A stretch of DNA of 21,986 nucleotides from Dehalococcoidia bacterium (GCA_046328255.1 JAXLWY010000026.1:1-21986); one strand, 5' to 3'. Shown: positions 11,742 through 18,099, counted from the stretch's first letter. Notes: generated by a model not told the origin, from the sequence alone. Numbers and translations are program-made.

Positions 11742-13823
11742 ATGCCGTTCGACCTGCCTCAGATCGCGTGGTTGACGACGGCGCTGACCATCGGCATCCC
11801 TGTCCTCCTGCTCATCGTCCTCATCGGGCGGCCGCTCGTGAACATCGGCGGCGAGGAGGTGGGTCTCGTCGAGCGGCGCTACTTCGGAGCCGGACTTCCG
11901 GAGGGCCGCGTCATCGCGATGCCGGGCCAGGTCGGCATCCAGGCGCGCGTGCTGCGCCCGGGCCTGCACGTCCTCTTCCCGTACCTCTATCGAGTGCAGA
12001 AGCGCCCGATGATCGTCATCGGCGAGAACGAGGTGGGCATCGTCGAGTCGATCGACGGGAACCCGCTCGCACCGGGACACATCTTCGCGCGGCGCATCGG
12101 CAGCCACGACCTCTTCCAGGACGGCGAGGCCTTCCTGCGCGCCGGTGGCCAGAAGGGTCCCCAGGTCGACGTACTCCCGCCGGGCCAGTATCGAATCAAC
12201 ACCTACCTGTTTCGCATTCGCGTCGAACCGGCCCTCATCGTGCCGGCGAACCAGGTGGGTGTGGTCAGCGCTCGAGACGGTGAGCAGATCGAGGCGGGGC
12301 GCCTGCTCGCGTCGCAGACCGCCGGGCACAACTCGTTCCAGGACGGCGAGGCGTTCCTCGCAAACGAGGGCCAGCGCGGCCCCCAGATCGACGTGATCCT
12401 GCCCGGCCGCTATCGCCTCAACACCGACCTGTTCAGCGTGCAGGTCGCGCCCGCCACAGTCGTCGGGGCCGCGATGGTCGGGCAGGTCACCGCGAAGGAC
12501 GGCGAACCACTCCCCTCGGGTGAGCTCGTGGCCGCGAGCGTCACGGGACACACCGACTTCCAGAATGGCTCGGCGTTCCTCGCGGCCGGCGGTCAGCGGG
12601 GCCCGCAACTCGACCTCCTGCGGCCGGGTACGTACTACATCAACCCCTTGATGTTCGACGTCACCCTCGACGACGTCGCGGTCGTGCAGCGCGGCCAGGT
12701 GGCGGTCCTCGTATCGAACGTCGGGCCCGAGCCGGACCGGCCTCAGGCAGAGCGCCTCGCCGAGGGCCTCGAGCGCTACGTGGTGCCGCAGGGCTTCCGC
12801 GGAATCCAGTCGGAGGTCGCAGGGCCGGGTGTGTACTACCTCAACCGCTGGGCCTACCTCGCCTACGTAATTCCGACGACGAACCTCACGATCGACTGGG
12901 CCGAGGAAACCACCATCATCACCGAGCAGTCGGGGCCGCGCACCCAGACCGACGAGGAGCCCGAGCCTCGCCGCCTGCAGCTCTTCAACCCGCTCTCCGT
13001 GATCAGCCGTGACGGCTTCGAGATGAAGGTCTCGGTGAAGGTGATCATGCGCGTGCATCCCGAGCAGGCGCCGCTGATGGTGGCGAAGATCGGCTCCGTC
13101 CAGAACCTGATCGACCACGTCATCCACCCGATGATCGACTCGTCCTTCCGCAACCAGGCGTCGTCCACCGAGGCGATGTCATTCATGCAGGACCGCGCCG
13201 TCGAGCAGGAGAAGGCCGAGGTGCGCGCGCGCGAGGAGATGGAGAAGTACCACGTCGAGTGCGTGCGGGTGCTGATCTCGCAGATCATCCTGCCCGAGGA
13301 GTTGATGCACATCCACACGCGGCGCGTGATCGCGATGCAGCAGCAGGAGATGTTCATCGAGCAGCAGAAGTCGGAGCAGCAGCGCATCGCCACCGAGAAC
13401 ACGCGCGCACAGGCCGACCAGCAGATCAACCTCGTCTCGGCGCAGATTGGCGTGCAGATCGCCGAGCAGAACCGCCAGACCACGGTCATCGGCGCCGAGG
13501 GCCGCGCGCGCGCCATCGAGCTGGAGGGCAACGCTGAGGGCTCGAAGATCCTCGCGATCGGCAACGCCACCGCCGAGGCCTACGACCGCCAGCAGAACGC
13601 GATCGGCCAGGCGAACCTGTTCGGCATCGAGATCGCGAAGTCGATCGCGGGGGCCGGGCTGAAGATCACCCCGGACATCGTCGTCGGTGGGGACGGCGGC
13701 GGCGGGATGTTCGCGGCGTTCCTCGCGCAGATGCTCGCGGGCGGACGGGTGCCGGCGCTGGTGGGCGGCGGCAACGGTGGCAGTCCCGCGGCGGCACCGG
13801 ACTCCGAGATGCCCTCGAACTAG
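11742..13823 (+). CDS. Flotillin-like SPFH/band-7 family membrane protein with expanded N-terminal repeats
   Basis: 693-aa uninterrupted ORF. N-terminal TM (IAWLTTALTIGIPVLLLIVLIG), then 3-4 tandem ~60-aa repeats (FQDGEAFLRAGGQKGPQVDVLPPGQYRINTYLF / FQDGEAFLANEGQRGPQIDVILPGRYRLNTDLF / FQNGSAFLAAGGQRGPQLDLLRPGTYYINPLMF). Then SPFH core and a flotillin-type heptad region (EQQKSEQQRIATENTRAQADQQINLVSAQIGVQIAEQNRQ...AIELEGNAEGSKILAIGNATAEAY) and a Gly-rich tail. Confidence 0.85.
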   Translation: MPFDLPQIAWLTTALTIGIPVLLLIVLIGRPLVNIGGEEVGLVERRYFGAGLPEGRVIAMPGQVGIQARVLRPGLHVLFPYLYRVQKRPMIVIGENEVGIVESIDGNPLAPGHIFARRIGSHDLFQDGEAFLRAGGQKGPQVDVLPPGQYRINTYLFRIRVEPALIVPANQVGVVSARDGEQIEAGRLLASQTAGHNSFQDGEAFLANEGQRGPQIDVILPGRYRLNTDLFSVQVAPATVVGAAMVGQVTAKDGEPLPSGELVAASVTGHTDFQNGSAFLAAGGQRGPQLDLLRPGTYYINPLMFDVTLDDVAVVQRGQVAVLVSNVGPEPDRPQAERLAEGLERYVVPQGFRGIQSEVAGPGVYYLNRWAYLAYVIPTTNLTIDWAEETTIITEQSGPRTQTDEEPEPRRLQLFNPLSVISRDGFEMKVSVKVIMRVHPEQAPLMVAKIGSVQNLIDHVIHPMIDSSFRNQASSTEAMSFMQDRAVEQEKAEVRAREEMEKYHVECVRVLISQIILPEELMHIHTRRVIAMQQQEMFIEQQKSEQQRIATENTRAQADQQINLVSAQIGVQIAEQNRQTTVIGAEGRARAIELEGNAEGSKILAIGNATAEAYDRQQNAIGQANLFGIEIAKSIAGAGLKITPDIVVGGDGGGGMFAAFLAQMLAGGRVPALVGGGNGGSPAAAPDSEMPSN

Positions 13824-13947: not shown

Positions 13948-15192
13948 CTACGCCTCCGCGTGCGCCTCGGCGAAGGCCTTTGGATTCTTGAACACCTGGA
14001 GCGCGGTGCCAACCAGCTCACCCACCTGGCGGTACTGGCGCAACGCGATCAGGACGGCAAGCACGATGTAGAGGACGCCGATGCCGACGCGGAGCTCCTC
14101 GATGAGAACTGCGATGCCGGGCGATAGCTCACCGAATACCGGCGCGACGAACTGGATGGCGAACAGGACGAACAGCAGCACCGCCTCACGGCCGGACAGG
14201 CTGAGGCTGGCAAGGACTGCGACCGCGAAGATCGACTGCGCCGCCGTCAGGAACATCTCCTCGCGCGCCAGCGTTTCGAGGGGAAGCGCCGCCGTGCTGC
14301 GATCTGAGACTGCGTAGGCAATCGGCAGGCCGCCCACGAGCAGCGTCCACTGGTTCACCTTCGAAGAGATGAGCGCCCCCATCGCGACTGCCGCGCGACC
14401 TCGCCACGCGAGGATGAACGTGACCACGAACTCGGGCGCCTCCGAGGCGACAGGCGCGAGCCACTGCACGAGCAGGAACTCATCGATGCCGATCTCGGTT
14501 CCCACGTGCACGAGGCCGTGGGCGAACGGCTCGGCCGAGGCAAGGATCGATCCCGCCGAGTAGACAAAGAGCGCGCCCACCACGCTGCGTCGCTGCAGGC
14601 GCGGCAGCGCGCCGATCATCCTCGCGGGGCCGACGAGCTCGGGGTCCTCTGCGGGCGCCCTCGCGAGGACCGAGACGTAGGCGACGAAGATCACGCCGAG
14701 GATGGCGGCGTCGAGGAGCGACACGGACGCCTTGAACGGGATCACAAACGAGTAGAGCGTCGCCAGCGTCAGCGCCACCACCTCGAGCGAGTAGCTGCGT
14801 TCGAGGATCAGCGTGCCGACGCGTGTGCGGAAGTAGAGGATGGCGACGATCAGCGGCCATGCCGCGCCGATGAGCAGTCGATTGCCGCCGGTCATGTTCG
14901 CGATCGCGAATTTTGCCTGCTCAGGATCGCCCGGCGCGTGCCAGGCGAAGGTCATGCTCACGGCGTACTCGGGAAGGACGGCGATCAGCGCGATGAACGC
15001 GACCGCCACGCCCTGCGCGACGTCCACCTCGGACGCCTCGGCGCTCCACGCGAGGAGGAACGCGGCGGCGACGATCGAGAGTCCGTAGAGCGCGGTGTCG
15101 GAGGCCGTGCCGATGTGGTAGCCGCCCATGCGCAGCATCAGTCCGGGAATGGCACAGAGCAGTGCGACGACGACTATCGTCCGGTTCCCCAA
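13948..15192 (-). CDS. Cation/Ca2+ exchanger (CaCA) family antiporter
   Basis: Polytopic membrane protein with two alpha-repeat-like segments (LAWSAEASEVDVAQGVAVAF and QWLAPVASEAPEFVVTFILAWRGRAAVAMGALISSKVNQWTLLVGG). The track ORF extends to 15369, but the first ~60 codons look non-coding (Arg/Ser-rich). Probable start near 15192 (TTG) or an internal Met; start is uncertain. Confidence 0.7.
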   Translation of the reverse strand: MGNRTIVVVALLCAIPGLMLRMGGYHIGTASDTALYGLSIVAAAFLLAWSAEASEVDVAQGVAVAFIALIAVLPEYAVSMTFAWHAPGDPEQAKFAIANMTGGNRLLIGAAWPLIVAILYFRTRVGTLILERSYSLEVVALTLATLYSFVIPFKASVSLLDAAILGVIFVAYVSVLARAPAEDPELVGPARMIGALPRLQRRSVVGALFVYSAGSILASAEPFAHGLVHVGTEIGIDEFLLVQWLAPVASEAPEFVVTFILAWRGRAAVAMGALISSKVNQWTLLVGGLPIAYAVSDRSTAALPLETLAREEMFLTAAQSIFAVAVLASLSLSGREAVLLFVLFAIQFVAPVFGELSPGIAVLIEELRVGIGVLYIVLAVLIALRQYRQVGELVGTALQVFKNPKAFAEAHAEA

Positions 15193-15332
15193 CGCATCCT
15201 CCGATGATCCGTTCTCCCGGCTCCGGTCATCATCGTGCCTCGGGCAGCACCGCGCCACGAGGCGTACCTCGCCAGATGGCCGCGCGTAGACTCTCGTCAC
15301 CCCACGGGCCAAACACGCATTGAGGGAGAGGG

Positions 15333-15848
15333 ATGATCCGGGACGTCGAGCTACGGGACGCTGGGCCAAAGGGCAGAGGCGTGTTCGTGCGACGGAGTTT
15401 TCGGCGCGGCGAGTTCATCTTCCGTCGCAGGCAGGGTCCGGCGCTCACCGCTTCCGAGATCAGTCTGTTGTCGGACGATGAGCGAAGGCACCTGTGCGAG
15501 CTCGACTGGAACCACAGCGCAGTGCTCTTCCCGCCGGGCTGCTACCTCAACCATTCGTGCGAACCGAACGCGATGAGAAGCGGCGTGAAGGTGTTCGCAT
15601 GGCGGGATGTGGAGGCAGGCGAGGAGATCACCATCGACTACCGGCTCAACGCCTTCGACGACACCGAGCGGTGGCCGTGCCTGTGCGGGCACTGCGCCGG
15701 CACGGTGACGGGGAGCTTCTTCGCGTTATCCATCGCGCGTGCCGACGCCTACCTGCCGTACGCGCCGCGCTTCATCCGGCTCGAGTACCAGAGGCGACGT
15801 GTGCTCCTCGAAGCATCTCGCTCACGGGCCGCCATCGATGTAGCGTGA
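15333..15848 (+). CDS. SET-domain protein (putative protein-lysine methyltransferase) with Cys-rich post-SET motif
   Basis: GRGVFVRRSFRRGEFI..., NHSCEPNA, EAGEEITIDY, and post-SET WPCLCGHCAG. GGGAGAGGG RBS directly upstream of the ATG. Confidence 0.8.
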   Translation: MIRDVELRDAGPKGRGVFVRRSFRRGEFIFRRRQGPALTASEISLLSDDERRHLCELDWNHSAVLFPPGCYLNHSCEPNAMRSGVKVFAWRDVEAGEEITIDYRLNAFDDTERWPCLCGHCAGTVTGSFFALSIARADAYLPYAPRFIRLEYQRRRVLLEASRSRAAIDVA

Positions 15849-15852
15849 AGCC

Positions 15853-16467
15853 ATGTGGCTGCAGAGCACGTCGCGGTACCCGCTCGACGAGGTGCGCACG
15901 CTCGTCGAGTTCGCGATGGCCGAGATCGACCATGGCGAGCTCGCGGTCCGGGTCAAGAACACCCGCGACATCTATCGAGGCCGCGCGTACGACGGCCTGC
16001 CCTCGATCTCGGCCGCGCAACGCCAGCCGGGCATGACGCGCCTCGTCACGCTTGCGATCGGCGCGCCCTCGAACTTCCCCACGACGAACGAGGTGCGCAC
16101 GGCGCGCTGGCGTCGAGTCCGCGAGGGCGAGTCCCTCGATGGCGTGCGAGCCTCCGACCTCCGACGCACCCGTCCGAACGCCCGCTCCGGCGCCCGAGCG
16201 CGCACCGGCGCGCCCGCCGACCCGCGAGGTCAGCTCGAGCGGCGCGAGGTGCGCACGCACGGCTACGGCGGAGTTACGTCGCCGGTCGTCGAGATCGCCG
16301 ACTGGCAGGAGGCGCTGGTGGCGGTCGCCTCCCACGAGGCGCGCCACATCTGGCAATACCAGCACGACGCGCCTCGGAGCGAGGTGGATGCGGAGCGTTA
16401 CTCGGCGGCGCGCCTTGCACTCTGGCGCGAATGGCGCGCATGGCGCGAAGGCCCCATCGCGATCTGA
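15853..16467 (+). CDS. Hypothetical protein with HExxH (HEARHIWQYQH) zincin-like motif, co-transcribed with the SET gene
   Basis: Starts 5 nt after the SET stop. High GC3 across the whole ORF, including the Arg-rich central linker. C-terminal GYGGVTSPVVEIADWQEALVAVASHEARHIWQYQHD resembles HExxH-x(n)-H metallopeptidase-like families (DUF45/SprT/DUF4157-like), but no family can be assigned by eye. W-R-E/A triplet repeat at the C-terminus (LALWREWRAWRE). Confidence 0.5.
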   Translation: MWLQSTSRYPLDEVRTLVEFAMAEIDHGELAVRVKNTRDIYRGRAYDGLPSISAAQRQPGMTRLVTLAIGAPSNFPTTNEVRTARWRRVREGESLDGVRASDLRRTRPNARSGARARTGAPADPRGQLERREVRTHGYGGVTSPVVEIADWQEALVAVASHEARHIWQYQHDAPRSEVDAERYSAARLALWREWRAWREGPIAI

Positions 16468-16528
16468 CCGCGGACGTTGCGGCGCCTCTCGCCGTCCGGG
16501 ACACTGAATCGCGCACACGGAGGGCCAC

Positions 16529-16798
16529 ATGTGGAAGCGACGTCGACGTCGTGCGCTGGGCAGGCGGAAGCGATTCCCGCTCGCGATCATGGGCCTGATC
16601 CAGTTCGCGCTGCTGGTCGCCGCGCAGATCGATCTCCTGCGTCGTCCAGACGCCGCTGTGCGCGGGCCGAAGTGGGCCTGGCGCGCGGCCACGCTCGTGA
16701 ATTTCGTCGGTCCTCTCGCGTATTTCGCCCTCGGCCGTCGCGAGGTTGCACCCGCCTCATCCGCACCGGCGGTACCGAGCGCGTTCGAGCCGGCCTAG
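16529..16798 (+). CDS. Small membrane protein with PLD-nuclease N-terminal-like (PLDc_N) domain
   Basis: MWKRRRRRALGRRKRFPLAIMGLIQFALLVAAQIDLLRRP...PKWAWRAATLVNFVGPLAYFALGRRE. Two hydrophobic helices around a conserved D/R...KW...PxxGP...GRR pattern typical of PLDc_N mini-proteins. GGAGGG RBS 6 nt upstream. Its 3' end overlaps the convergent amidase stop by 4 nt. Confidence 0.6.
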   Translation: MWKRRRRRALGRRKRFPLAIMGLIQFALLVAAQIDLLRRPDAAVRGPKWAWRAATLVNFVGPLAYFALGRREVAPASSAPAVPSAFEPA

Positions 16799-18099
16799 CC
16801 GCCTGTCGCCGCGAGCACTGACTCGACCGCGCTCGCGACCGCGAGCAGCGCCTCGTCGGCGCCATGCCGCCCGGCGAGCTGCAGCCCGACGGGCAACCCC
16901 CCGATATCGCCGGCCGGCACGCTGACGACGGGCAACCCCGCGTGCGTCCACGGTGTGTTCATCACCGGGCTGCCGGTCGAGGCTTGCCCGAGCGGAGCGG
17001 CGCCCGGCGCCGACGGACTGGCCCAGGCGTCGAGCCGGTGGAGCTCCATGAGTCCCTCGAGCGCGTTGCGCAGGGCAAGCGTTCCGGCGACGCCCGCGGA
17101 GCGCTGCTCCGAGGTCACCGCGCTGCCTTCCTCGAAGAGCTGGGCTGAGCGAGGTCGGTAGAGCGGGCCGTACTCGGCGAACAGCGCGCGGTGCTGATCG
17201 GCGAACTCGGCGGCGGTCAGCCAGCCGTGGCGCGTGCTGATCGCCGCGATGTCCTCGAGGGCCGGCACGCGCCGCACCTCGATGCCCGCAGCCACCAGTG
17301 TGTCGAGAGTGCGCTCGAAGGCGCCCAACGCTGCCGACTCGGCGCGTGCGAGGTAGGGGCCTTCCGGTACGCCAAGCACGACACGGGGCGCCGACGAGGC
17401 TTCGCGCCAGTCCTCGATGAGCACGCGCGCGGCCTCGATCAGACCGGCGACATCGCGGGTGAACCAGCCTACGGTGTCGACGCTCGGCGAGTAGTACACG
17501 ACGCCGCTCGAGGGCACGCGTCCCAGCGACGGCTTCAGCGCGGCGACGCCGCAGTAGGCGGCGGGCCGGATCACGGAACCCACCGTCTGCGTGCCGAGGG
17601 CGAGCGGAGCCAGCCCCGCGGCAACCGCGGCCGCCGACCCGCTGCTCGACCCGCCCGGGGTATGGCCGGGTGCTCTCGGGTTCCGCGTCGCCGCGGGCTC
17701 GAAGTAGGCGAACTCGGTGGTGGCGGACTTGCCGAGGATGAGCGCGCCGGCCTCGCGGAGGCGCGTCACGACCCACGCCTCGGCGCCCGCGAAGACTTCG
17801 GTGGGCAACGCCGAGCCCGCGCGCGTCGGGAAGCCGTCGACGCGAATCACGTCCTTCACCGCGACGGGCACGCCGAACAGGGGCGGACGCACCGACGGAG
17901 TGAATCGAGCCTCGAGGGCGCGCGCCTCCGCGCGCAGACGCTCACGGCGGCCCAGCTCCGGGAGCACGGCGAGCACGTGTGGGTTGAGCTCCTCGAGACG
18001 GTCACGAAGGCAGCCTCGGTAAGTGCCGTTACGTCGAGTTCGCCGCCTCGAGCCGCTGCGAGGCCGCGAGTTCAAGCCCAGTGCCTCGAGTTGGCTCAT
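16795..18099 (-). CDS. Amidase-signature (AS) family amidase; N-terminus carries two compensating frameshifts (~18030-18075)
   Basis: GGSSSGSAAAVAAG signature, VAVKDVIRVDGFPTRAGS, ILGKSATTEFAYF. ATG at 18099 gives MSQLEALGL, but the expected consensus (…TELAAARGGELDVTALTEAA…) is only found in another frame before returning to LRDRLEELNPHV. Body of the gene is intact. Confidence 0.8.
   Translation of the reverse strand: MSQLEALGLNSRPRSGSRRRTRRNGTYRGCLRDRLEELNPHVLAVLPELGRRERLRAEARALEARFTPSVRPPLFGVPVAVKDVIRVDGFPTRAGSALPTEVFAGAEAWVVTRLREAGALILGKSATTEFAYFEPAATRNPRAPGHTPGGSSSGSAAAVAAGLAPLALGTQTVGSVIRPAAYCGVAALKPSLGRVPSSGVVYYSPSVDTVGWFTRDVAGLIEAARVLIEDWREASSAPRVVLGVPEGPYLARAESAALGAFERTLDTLVAAGIEVRRVPALEDIAAISTRHGWLTAAEFADQHRALFAEYGPLYRPRSAQLFEEGSAVTSEQRSAGVAGTLALRNALEGLMELHRLDAWASPSAPGAAPLGQASTGSPVMNTPWTHAGLPVVSVPAGDIGGLPVGLQLAGRHGADEALLAVASAVESVLAATGG

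What the first reader, a model, noticed from the sequence alone, without database searches (positions are those of the whole stretch)
15333..16798. Tight SET-domain methyltransferase + HExxH-motif protein pair, followed by a PLDc_N mini-membrane protein
A bacterial SET-domain protein carrying a Cys-rich post-SET module is followed after 5 nt by a 204-aa protein. Its only recognisable feature is a zincin-like HEARH-x5-H motif after a long Arg-rich linker. A PLDc_N-type two-helix membrane protein comes next. Bacterial SET proteins are uncommon outside host-associated effectors and archaeal chromatin modifiers. Their partner proteins are largely uncharacterised. A methyltransferase/putative metallopeptidase couple could modify and process a specific substrate, or act as a toxin-immunity-like pair. 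The surrounding genes (antiporter, amidase) offer no functional link, consistent with an accessory insertion.
Basis: partly seen in the sequence, partly recalled or inferred. Interest (0 to 1): 0.6.

Follow-up and report, generated by a model that had tools for sequence, protein, structure and literature searches.

The report
SET gene inserted beside unrelated zincin
The three genes are real, but the methyltransferase is a recent 549-base insertion in front of an older, unrelated zinc-hydrolase-like gene. The "tight pair" is therefore a chance neighbourhood, not a two-protein system.

Summary
Observation confirmed. SET (15333-15848, 171 aa), a 204-aa HEARH protein (15853-16467) and a PLDc_N mini-membrane protein (16529-16798) sit as described on a Dehalococcoidia contig.

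Interpretation split:
- Functional SET/zincin couple not supported. Profile searches found no SET gene in 44 other ORF2-family loci (33 with at least 600 nt upstream). Four retrieved SET-homologue loci hold no ORF2 relative. Orthologous loci with 89-91% identical ORF2 read antiporter|ORF2|PLDc_N (amidase next where the contig reaches that far) with no SET.
- DNA alignment shows window 15260-15808 replacing 19-53 nt of intergenic DNA.
- The last 13 SET codons and the stop codon are ancestral ORF2-upstream DNA. They overlie a conserved TAGCGT-N6-ATG promoter-like element, so the 5-nt spacing is accidental.

ORF2 belongs to an unnamed, mostly basic zincin-like family (1056 clusters at 50% identity) with clade-specific neighbours and unknown substrate. 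Low interest overall.

The parts
13948..15192 (-). Na+/Ca2+-exchanger-family antiporter, the left neighbour in the ancestral synteny. The mechanical ORF runs on to TTG 15369, but orthologues are called at 414 aa, so the real start is near 15192.
   Evidence: Pfam Na_Ca_ex 9.7e-17. Orthologues lie directly upstream of ORF2 in L001, L002, L003, L012, L013 and L037.
15260..15808 (+). Inserted segment of 549 nt, absent from orthologous loci. It holds 73 nt of 5' leader with a Shine-Dalgarno-like GAGGGAGAGGG (15322-15332) plus the conserved part of the SET coding sequence.
   Evidence: Local alignments: window homology to L037 ends at 15259 and resumes at 15809, with 19 nt between in L037. Against L048 the junctions are 15259 and 15806, with 53 nt between. 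No flanking target duplication or terminal inverted repeats.
15333..15848 (+). SET-domain methyltransferase gene, 171 aa. NHSCEPN is at 15549-15569, the catalytic Tyr103 is in ITIDY, and the post-SET-type CxCx2C is at 15678-15695.
   Evidence: Pfam SET 4.1e-13. The family alignment shows invariant N73, H74, C76, P78, Y103, C116, C118 and C121. A family profile matches the SET and post-SET regions of NSD2, ASH1L, MLL and SETD2 at about 1e-11.
15809..15848 (+). Non-homologous C-terminal tail of the SET ORF (13 codons plus the stop codon). It is read from ancestral ORF2-upstream DNA.
   Evidence: SET family homology ends at about residue 157. DNA from 15809 onwards aligns with the intergenic DNA of SET-less orthologues.
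15817..15846 (+). Putative ORF2 core promoter kept intact by the insertion. It has a -35-like CTCGCT (15817-15822), an 18-nt spacer and a -10-like TAGCGT (15841-15846), 6 nt before the ATG. This suggests a leaderless mRNA (inferred).
   Evidence: GTAGCGT-N6-ATG/GTG and the upstream CTCGC are conserved in all eight clade-A loci, down to 55% ORF2 identity, while the rest of the spacer diverges. The consensus sigma-70 scan finds nothing, so the function is inferred only.
15853..16467 (+). ORF2, 204 aa: a cytoplasmic, basic (pI 10.3) zincin-fold protein from an unnamed family.
16090..16263 (+). Variable Arg-rich insertion (residues about 80-137) between the N-terminal beta-sheet subdomain and the active-site helix. 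It is absent from many family members.
   Evidence: Alignment gaps in P0064 and P0092-P0104. Many family members are only 124-160 aa. pLDDT dips to 69-80 here.
16333..16347 (+). H161-E162-A-R-H165: predicted metal-binding histidines and catalytic glutamate.
   Evidence: E162 and H165 are invariant and H161 is at least 90% conserved in 46 diverse members. The motif lies in predicted helix 151-170.
16381..16395 (+). E177-V-D-A-E181 at the start of the following helix: candidate third metal ligand, gluzincin style.
   Evidence: E177 and E181 are each at least 90% conserved. Helix 177-199 is in the model. Geometry was not checked because no coordinates are available.
16529..16798 (+). PLDc_N-type two-helix membrane protein, 89 aa. 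It is syntenic with ORF2 only within the closest clade.
   Evidence: Pfam PLDc_N 8.1e-8. It lies downstream of ORF2 in L001-L003, L012, L013, L036-L039 and L050. It is absent next to ORF2 in other clades.
16795..18090 (-). Amidase, the right neighbour in the ancestral synteny. Its start is approximate, taken from orthologues of 432-435 aa.
   Evidence: Pfam Amidase 6.3e-69. Same position in L001, L002, L036-L039 and L050.

Best explanation
The 'pair' is a chance juxtaposition.

The ancestral locus in this Dehalococcoidia lineage was antiporter(-) | ORF2(+) | PLDc_N(+) | amidase(-). In the window's lineage a 549-nt segment landed in the spacer between antiporter and ORF2, about 10 nt upstream of ORF2's core promoter-like element. 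The segment carried one stand-alone SET methyltransferase gene: a leader, a ribosome-binding site and the conserved coding part.

The insert ends inside the variable C-terminal tail of SET. The reading frame therefore continues for 13 codons through ancestral DNA and stops at a TGA that overlaps the -10-like TAGCGT, 4 nt before ORF2's ATG. That accident produces the apparent tight coupling.

SET is an intact member of a very abundant family of bacterial SET plus post-SET proteins of about 160 aa. These occur singly in changing neighbourhoods. It is presumably a SAM-dependent methyltransferase of an unknown lysine or small-molecule substrate.

ORF2 is an independent, vertically inherited gene of an unnamed zincin-fold family. 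The most likely mechanism (inferred) is a cytoplasmic mono-zinc hydrolase. H161 and H165, plus a glutamate on the next helix (E177 or E181), would hold the metal, and E162 would activate water. A peptide or amide bond is the most probable target.

PLDc_N is simply the next gene in the clade's synteny.
For: Shown:
- ORFs and domains.
- Orthologous loci with 89-91% identical ORF2 (L036-L039, L048) and more distant ones (L001, L002, L012 at about 74%; L003, L013 at 55%) have the antiporter directly upstream of ORF2 and no SET.
- The junctions at 15259|15260 and 15806-15809 are reproduced with two independent comparators.
- SET family homology ends at residue about 157. DNA homology to the closest SET (L049) spans 15333-15811 only.
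- A SET-family HMM finds no SET in 44 other ORF2 loci, and an ORF2 HMM finds no hit in the four retrieved SET loci.
- The sampled SET homologues sit beside DinB, HxlR/SDR, 3HCDH/Obg or GNAT genes.
- ORF2 neighbours differ by clade: GerE/HtrA/rhomboid in one, GT4/M24 in another.
- The same insertion is present in a second strain at 97.65% identity.
- TAGCGT-N6-ATG is conserved in the right arm.
- ORF2 fold and motif.

Inferred: the direction of the event (gain rather than loss), the promoter and leaderless reading, the metal ligands, and the peptidase chemistry.
Against: - Only five SET-homologue contexts out of more than 1000 were inspected, so the SET-side test is thin.
- Insertion versus loss rests on parsimony over ORF2 identity levels, not on a species tree.
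- No mobile-element hallmarks explain how the segment arrived. Its GC3 (0.85) is host-like.
- The new arrangement could still be co-transcribed, and no terminator is seen between the genes.
- Foldseek against the PDB gave nothing significant.
- The metal-site geometry could not be inspected.
Confidence: 0.8

Rival explanations
1. SET and the zincin-like protein are a dedicated two-component system: the methyltransferase modifies a substrate or the partner and the metallopeptidase processes it, or they act as a toxin-immunity-like pair. They would be expressed as a translationally coupled operon.
For: The two genes are 4-5 nt apart on the same strand. No terminator-like site lies between them. 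The arrangement is kept in two strains at 97.65% identity.
Against: - No SET lies next to ORF2 in 44 other loci, and no ORF2 relative appears in the SET loci examined.
- Near-identical orthologous loci lack SET.
- The short spacing is explained by read-through into ancestral DNA.
- ORF2 keeps its own conserved upstream element.
- Neither protein matches any PADLOC defence model.
Confidence: 0.04
2. The SET-ORF2 arrangement is ancestral, and SET was deleted in the relatives.
For: Presence or absence alone cannot give direction without a rooted tree. No insertion hallmarks (target duplication, inverted repeats) were found. SET codon composition is host-like.
Against: - All three more distant tiers of relatives (about 90%, 74% and 55% ORF2 identity) lack SET at this site. 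That would need at least three independent losses against one gain.
- The SET C-terminus is non-homologous exactly from the junction on, and reads through DNA that is conserved as non-coding promoter-like sequence in the others. This is the signature of a gain.
Confidence: 0.03
3. ORF2 is not a peptidase. It would be a YbeY-like metal-dependent nuclease, or a hydrolase that acts on nucleic acids or nucleic-acid-bound proteins.
Against: - The invariant Glu in HExxH is the peptidase-type general base. By my recollection YbeY has an H-x3-H-x5-H motif with Gly at that position. The corresponding third His (H171) is not conserved here.
- High Arg content is partly an effect of the 70% GC composition.
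Confidence: 0.25

Closest known systems
Bacterial and viral minimal SET-domain methyltransferases, and the SET plus post-SET core of eukaryotic NSD/ASH1L/MLL/SETD2 (Pfam PF00856)
   Same: The SET domain scores above the Pfam cut-off. The NHxCxPN and catalytic-Tyr motifs and a post-SET-type Cys cluster are present. A family profile hits NSD2, ASH1L and MLL at about 1e-11, PBCV-1 vSET at 3e-7 and BurB at 4e-7. SET genes are already documented in free-living bacteria (PMC3980110).
   Different: - It is a stand-alone protein of about 160 aa with a family-specific C-terminal helix region (GSFFAL...YLPYAPRFI..EY).
- This copy and its nearest relatives have CxCx2C instead of CxCx4C.
- The last 13 residues are a non-homologous read-through tail.
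- The substrate is unknown. BurB shows that a bacterial SET enzyme can methylate free methionine rather than a protein (PMC12542666).
Minimal zincin-fold metallohydrolases: YbeY/UPF0054, minigluzincins (proabylysin, projannalysin, selecase), SprT/Wss1 (WLM), and Pfam DUF6782
   Same: A single-domain fold of about 140 aa, with a beta-sheet followed by an active-site helix and a second helix. HExxH lies on the first helix and conserved acidic residues on the next. There is sub-threshold sequence similarity to DUF6782 over the HExxH helix in all 27 members tested.
   Different: - No Pfam, NCBIfam, PHROG or PADLOC model reaches threshold.
- No PDB sequence or Foldseek match is significant.
- It has its own signature: W-x-E-x-L-V-x-x-A-A-H-E-x-x-H-x-x-Q-[FY]-x(6-9)-S-E-V-x-x-E, and an N-terminal NTSxYP...Y-x-G-x-A-Y motif.
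- The spacer between HExxH and the candidate Glu ligand is very short (11-15 residues).
- A variable Arg-rich insertion is present.
- The third His of YbeY and the metzincins is not conserved.
PLDc_N small membrane proteins (PF13396)
   Same: Two predicted transmembrane helices, and a Pfam hit above the cut-off.
   Different: No functional link to ORF2 was demonstrated. The adjacency is restricted to one clade's synteny.

Membership tests
SET-domain methyltransferase (PF00856) with post-SET | Profile match to the SET domain above the curated threshold | tested here: met
   50.1 bits against a cut-off of 22.4, E 4.1e-13, residues 14-103.
SET-domain methyltransferase (PF00856) with post-SET | Pseudoknot and SAM-pocket motifs NHxCxPN and (E)LxFDY with the catalytic Tyr | tested here: met
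   N73-H74-S-C76-E-P78-N and I-T-I-D102-Y103 are present. N73, H74, C76, P78, D102 and Y103 are invariant in 17 homologues.
SET-domain methyltransferase (PF00856) with post-SET | Post-SET zinc cluster: three Cys (CxCx4C) plus the Cys of NHxC | tested here: met
   C116, C118, C121 and C76 are invariant. The spacing is CxCx2C here and in the three nearest homologues, and CxCx4C in the rest. Metal binding itself was not tested.
SET-domain methyltransferase (PF00856) with post-SET | SAM-dependent methyl transfer to a defined substrate | not testable with these tools
   No assay is possible. The AF2 model was unusable (pLDDT 58).
Zincin (HExxH) metallohydrolase superfamily | HExxH conserved across the family | tested here: met
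   E162 and H165 are invariant and H161 is at least 90% conserved in 46 diverse members. 45 of the 46 carry HExxH.
Zincin (HExxH) metallohydrolase superfamily | Zincin fold: a mixed beta-sheet subdomain, then the active-site helix bearing HExxH, then a further helix | tested here: met
Gluzincin subclass | Third metal ligand is a Glu on the helix after the HExxH helix | tested here: inconclusive
   E177 and E181 are at least 90% conserved at the start of helix 177-199. Coordinates could not be inspected, and the spacer is unusually short.
Metzincin / YbeY-type site | Third His in HExxHxxxxxH (H-x3-H-x5-H) | tested here: not met
   H171 is present in the window protein but replaced by T, A, F, R, N and others in homologues.
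Pfam DUF6782 (putative metallopeptidase) | Score above the gathering threshold over the domain | tested here: not met
   19.4 bits against a cut-off of 27. Only profile positions 87-114 of 241 are matched. All 27 members are sub-threshold.
Conserved two-gene module (operon, toxin-immunity pair or modification-processing pair) | Recurrent adjacency of the two families across genomes | tested here: not met
   No SET in 44 other ORF2 loci, of which 33 have at least 600 nt upstream and 32 at least 600 nt downstream. No ORF2 HMM hit in the four retrieved SET loci.
PLDc_N (PF13396) | Profile match above the threshold | tested here: met
   32.5 bits against a cut-off of 23.3, residues 27-70.

The most novel reading that the evidence does not exclude
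ORF2 may found an undescribed clade of minimal, basic gluzincin-like enzymes with the signature HExxHxxQ[FY]-x6-9-SEVxxE. The clade is widespread (over 1000 clusters at 50% identity) and has a distinct cellular substrate, for example an RNA, or a protein bound to nucleic acid. In this one lineage, the SET insertion directly upstream may have created a nascent operon that couples methylation to that enzyme.
Probability: 0.1. Interest if true: 0.45.

Novelty: new member of a known kind. Interest (0 to 1): 0.15.

Why it matters
It matters mainly as a caution. Very short intergenic distance and shared strand looked like an operon. Comparison with orthologous loci shows a recent single-gene insertion whose reading frame simply runs into the neighbour's promoter region. 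This removes a speculative "methylate-and-cleave" or toxin-immunity system from the candidate list.

Two things of modest value remain:
- A sizeable zincin-fold family with no Pfam model, a clear signature, a confident structural model and no known function. It would merit a family definition and a substrate screen.
- A clean, datable example of how a gene insertion remodels a C-terminus and produces an apparent gene pair.

Tried and rejected
- Foldseek of the ORF2 model against the PDB: no hit with E below 0.1. The afdb50 library was unavailable.
- PDB sequence-profile search with the ORF2 family: only chance eL42 matches.
- NCBIfam, PHROGs and PADLOC for all three proteins: nothing.
- Pfam scan of ten longer family members, looking for informative fusions: nothing above threshold.
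- AF2 of SET with a 17-sequence alignment: pLDDT 58, unusable, so no fold search was run.
- Search for target-site duplications, terminal inverted repeats or other mobile-element marks around the insert: only short matches at chance level.
- Sigma-70 and terminator consensus scans of 15100-16900: no sites.
- Literature search for DUF6782: no papers.
- All-against-all clustering of flanking ORFs: only clade-specific synteny, partly confounded by high-GC shadow ORFs.
- Considered and rejected: an assembly chimera (a second assembly has the same order), and an integron-cassette-type insertion (no attC-like inverted repeat was seen in the repeat scan; integrase genes elsewhere in the window were not searched for).

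Full report
**Source and observation.** The window is a contig of about 70% GC. Its ORF2 is identical to a hypothetical protein of a Dehalococcoidia MAG.
- SET, 15333-15848 (+), 171 aa.
- ORF2, 15853-16467 (+), 204 aa.
- A PLDc_N protein, 16529-16798 (+), 89 aa.

Pfam confirms SET (50.1 bits, cut-off 22.4) and PLDc_N (32.5 bits, cut-off 23.3). For ORF2 it gives only a sub-threshold match to DUF6782, a 'putative metallopeptidase' family, over the HExxH helix. NCBIfam gives nothing. The left neighbour is a Na_Ca_ex antiporter on the minus strand and the right neighbour is an amidase on the minus strand. An independently assembled contig from run SRR26348421 is 97.65% identical over 4979 nt and carries the same five genes in the same order. 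The arrangement is therefore real.

**ORF2 is a zincin-fold protein of an unnamed family.** A word-indexed search found 106 homologues, none with a Pfam domain. An exhaustive HMM search of 1.84 billion cluster representatives found 1056 with E<=1e-3 and 101 with E<=1e-30. Most are 124-230 aa.
- Among 27 closer relatives the invariant residues include H161, E162, R164, H165, Q168, S176 and E177.
- Among 46 diverse representatives, E162 and H165 are invariant. H161, Q168, E177, E181 and W151 are at least 90% conserved.
It is not the family's third ligand.
- AlphaFold2 with the family alignment gives pLDDT 94 and pTM 0.85. The model has an N-terminal beta-sheet/helix subdomain, a variable insertion (about residues 80-137, the Arg-rich 'linker'), helix 151-170 carrying HEARH, and helix 177-199 starting with E177 and E181.
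- Foldseek and PDB sequence profiles give nothing significant, so no close solved relative exists.
- All 27 aligned members give sub-threshold DUF6782 hits.
- The family is basic: median pI 9.7, with 87% above 9, including short forms that lack the insert.
- No PHROG or PADLOC model matches. Longer members carry no informative extra domain.

I infer a mono-metal hydrolase. H161 and H165 plus E177 or E181 would bind the metal, and E162 would act as general base. A peptide or amide bond is the most likely target. A YbeY-like or nucleic-acid-linked activity remains a live alternative.

**The SET-ORF2 couple fails its own test.** I fetched 44 other loci that encode an ORF2 relative, from genomes and metagenomes. 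Neither tblastn with the window's SET nor an HMM of the SET family finds a SET gene in any of them. Of these loci, 33 have at least 600 nt upstream and 32 have at least 600 nt downstream.

ORF2's neighbours are clade-specific:
- Antiporter|ORF2|PLDc_N|amidase in the window's clade.
- Rhomboid, HtrA-like protease and a GerE regulator upstream, with SDR and ABC genes downstream, in another clade.
- Two GT4 glycosyltransferases upstream and an M24 peptidase downstream in a third.

On the SET side, the family is very large and highly conserved. More than 1151 homologues were found, and the best 120 share 62-99% identity with the window's SET. They include proteins from Ktedonobacterales, Anaerolinea and Dehalococcoidia. 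The contexts I inspected place SET beside DinB, HxlR/SDR, 3HCDH/Obg or a GNAT acetyltransferase. The ORF2 HMM finds nothing in the four SET loci that were retrieved. The SET side rests on only five contexts, so it is the thinner test. The ORF2 side is decisive.

**The SET gene is a recent insertion, and the 5-nt spacing is an accident.** Loci whose ORF2 is 91% (L036-L039) or 89% (L048) identical to the window's carry no SET gene. In L037 and L039 the order is antiporter(-), a spacer of about 127 nt, ORF2, then PLDc_N. The amidase follows in L036-L038. The more distant loci L001, L002 and L012 (about 74%) and L003 and L013 (55%) also lack SET.
- Window homology to L037 runs up to 15259 and resumes at 15809, with 19 nt between in L037.
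- Against L048 the junctions are 15259 and 15806, with 53 nt between.
- Thus 549 nt (15260-15808) replace a few tens of bases.
- Protein homology to SET relatives ends at about residue 157. DNA homology to the closest SET gene (L049) covers 15333-15811 only.
- The last 13 codons and the TGA of the SET ORF (15809-15848) are therefore ancestral ORF2-upstream DNA.
- That stretch contains GTAGCGT-N6-ATG/GTG and a CTCGC element 18 nt further upstream. Both are conserved in all eight clade-A loci while the rest of the spacer has diverged. I read this as ORF2's own -35/-10 pair for a leaderless mRNA. This is an inference, and the sigma-70 consensus scan finds nothing.
- The SET stop codon overlaps the last base of TAGCGT.
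- One gain is more parsimonious than three or more precise losses.
- No target duplication or terminal repeats were found. SET GC3 (0.85) resembles that of its neighbours (0.87-0.92). The donor was therefore compositionally similar, and the insertion mechanism is unknown.

**The SET protein itself** looks intact. It has NHSCEPN, the catalytic Tyr103 and invariant C76/C116/C118/C121. The family profile matches the SET and post-SET regions of NSD2, ASH1L, MLL and SETD2 at about 1e-11. It also matches PBCV-1 vSET and the bacterial SET enzyme BurB.
- BurB methylates free methionine (PMC12542666), so a protein-lysine substrate cannot be assumed.
- SET genes in free-living bacteria are already documented (PMC3980110).
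- The NCBI start (153 aa) is probably too short. The first 18 residues of the 171-aa ORF align with all homologues, and a Shine-Dalgarno-like sequence precedes the ATG at 15333.
- An AF2 model from the shallow alignment was unusable (pLDDT 58).

**PLDc_N** follows ORF2 by 61 nt, with its own GGAGGG. It does so in every clade-A locus that extends far enough, but not in other clades. This is synteny among relatives, not evidence of coupling.

**Verdict.** The zincin reading is supported, with a corrected motif (HExxHxxQ...SE..E, not HExxH-x5-H). The functional pair, the toxin-immunity idea and the 'accessory insertion of the block' are not supported. What remains is an ordinary stand-alone bacterial SET gene, newly inserted beside a member of an uncharacterised but structurally recognisable zincin family. 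Interest is low (0.15). The residual novelty lies in the unnamed zincin family and in the neat example of an insertion-generated pseudo-operon.

Noticed in passing
window 15333-15390: The database annotation of the SET gene (P0107, 153 aa) starts 18 codons too late. Residues 1-18 of the 171-aa ORF (MIRDVELRDAGPKGRGVF) align with all homologues, and a GAGGGAGAGGG Shine-Dalgarno-like sequence precedes the ATG at 15333. A second gene caller gives 171 aa.
   Followed up: yes
window 15817-15852; L001, L002, L003, L012, L013, L037, L048 upstream of ORF2: GTAGCGT followed by 6 nt and the start codon, plus CTCGC 18 nt further upstream, is conserved across loci whose ORF2 proteins are only 55% identical, while the surrounding spacer diverges. 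This suggests a promoter for a leaderless mRNA. No Shine-Dalgarno sequence precedes ORF2.
   Followed up: partly
window 11742-13823 (+): The 693-aa SPFH/Band 7 protein has three N-terminal repeats of about 90 aa each (GHxxFQDGEAFLxxGGQxGPQxDxLxPGxYxxN...) before the Band_7 domain. A close orthologue (88% identity) is in L001.
   Followed up: no
window 15193-15369 (-): The mechanical antiporter ORF extends to a TTG at 15369 and would overlap the SET start divergently. Orthologues are called at 414 aa, so the real start is near 15192 and the overlap is an ORF-calling artefact.
   Followed up: partly
window 16363-16365 (H171 of ORF2): The window's ORF2 and some close relatives happen to have a His at the YbeY/metzincin third-ligand position (H-x3-H-x5-H), although the family as a whole does not. 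It might act as an auxiliary ligand in this subclade.
   Followed up: partly
L004, L005, L007, L015 upstream of ORF2 (about -45 to -10): In a second clade the ORF2 homologue is preceded by a strong TATAGT/TATCAT/TATATT box and a conserved CTCCCCCC leader, downstream of a GerE-family regulator gene. This upstream architecture differs from the one in the window's clade.
   Followed up: no
L043 3773-5573: In a Chloroflexia-type clade the ORF2 homologue overlaps the end of a GT4 glycosyltransferase gene by 17 nt and follows two GT4 genes. This is the only context seen that suggests co-translation with a neighbour.
   Followed up: no
window 16795-16798: The PLDc_N stop codon region and the convergent amidase gene's stop overlap by 4 nt. 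In L036-L039 the two genes are separated by 3 nt.
   Followed up: no
PDB 9l4t (BurB) against the SET family profile: The SET family profile matches the bacterial SET enzyme BurB (E 3.6e-7), which methylates free methionine in DMSP synthesis. Small-molecule substrates should therefore be considered for this abundant family of about 160-aa bacterial SET proteins.
   Followed up: partly
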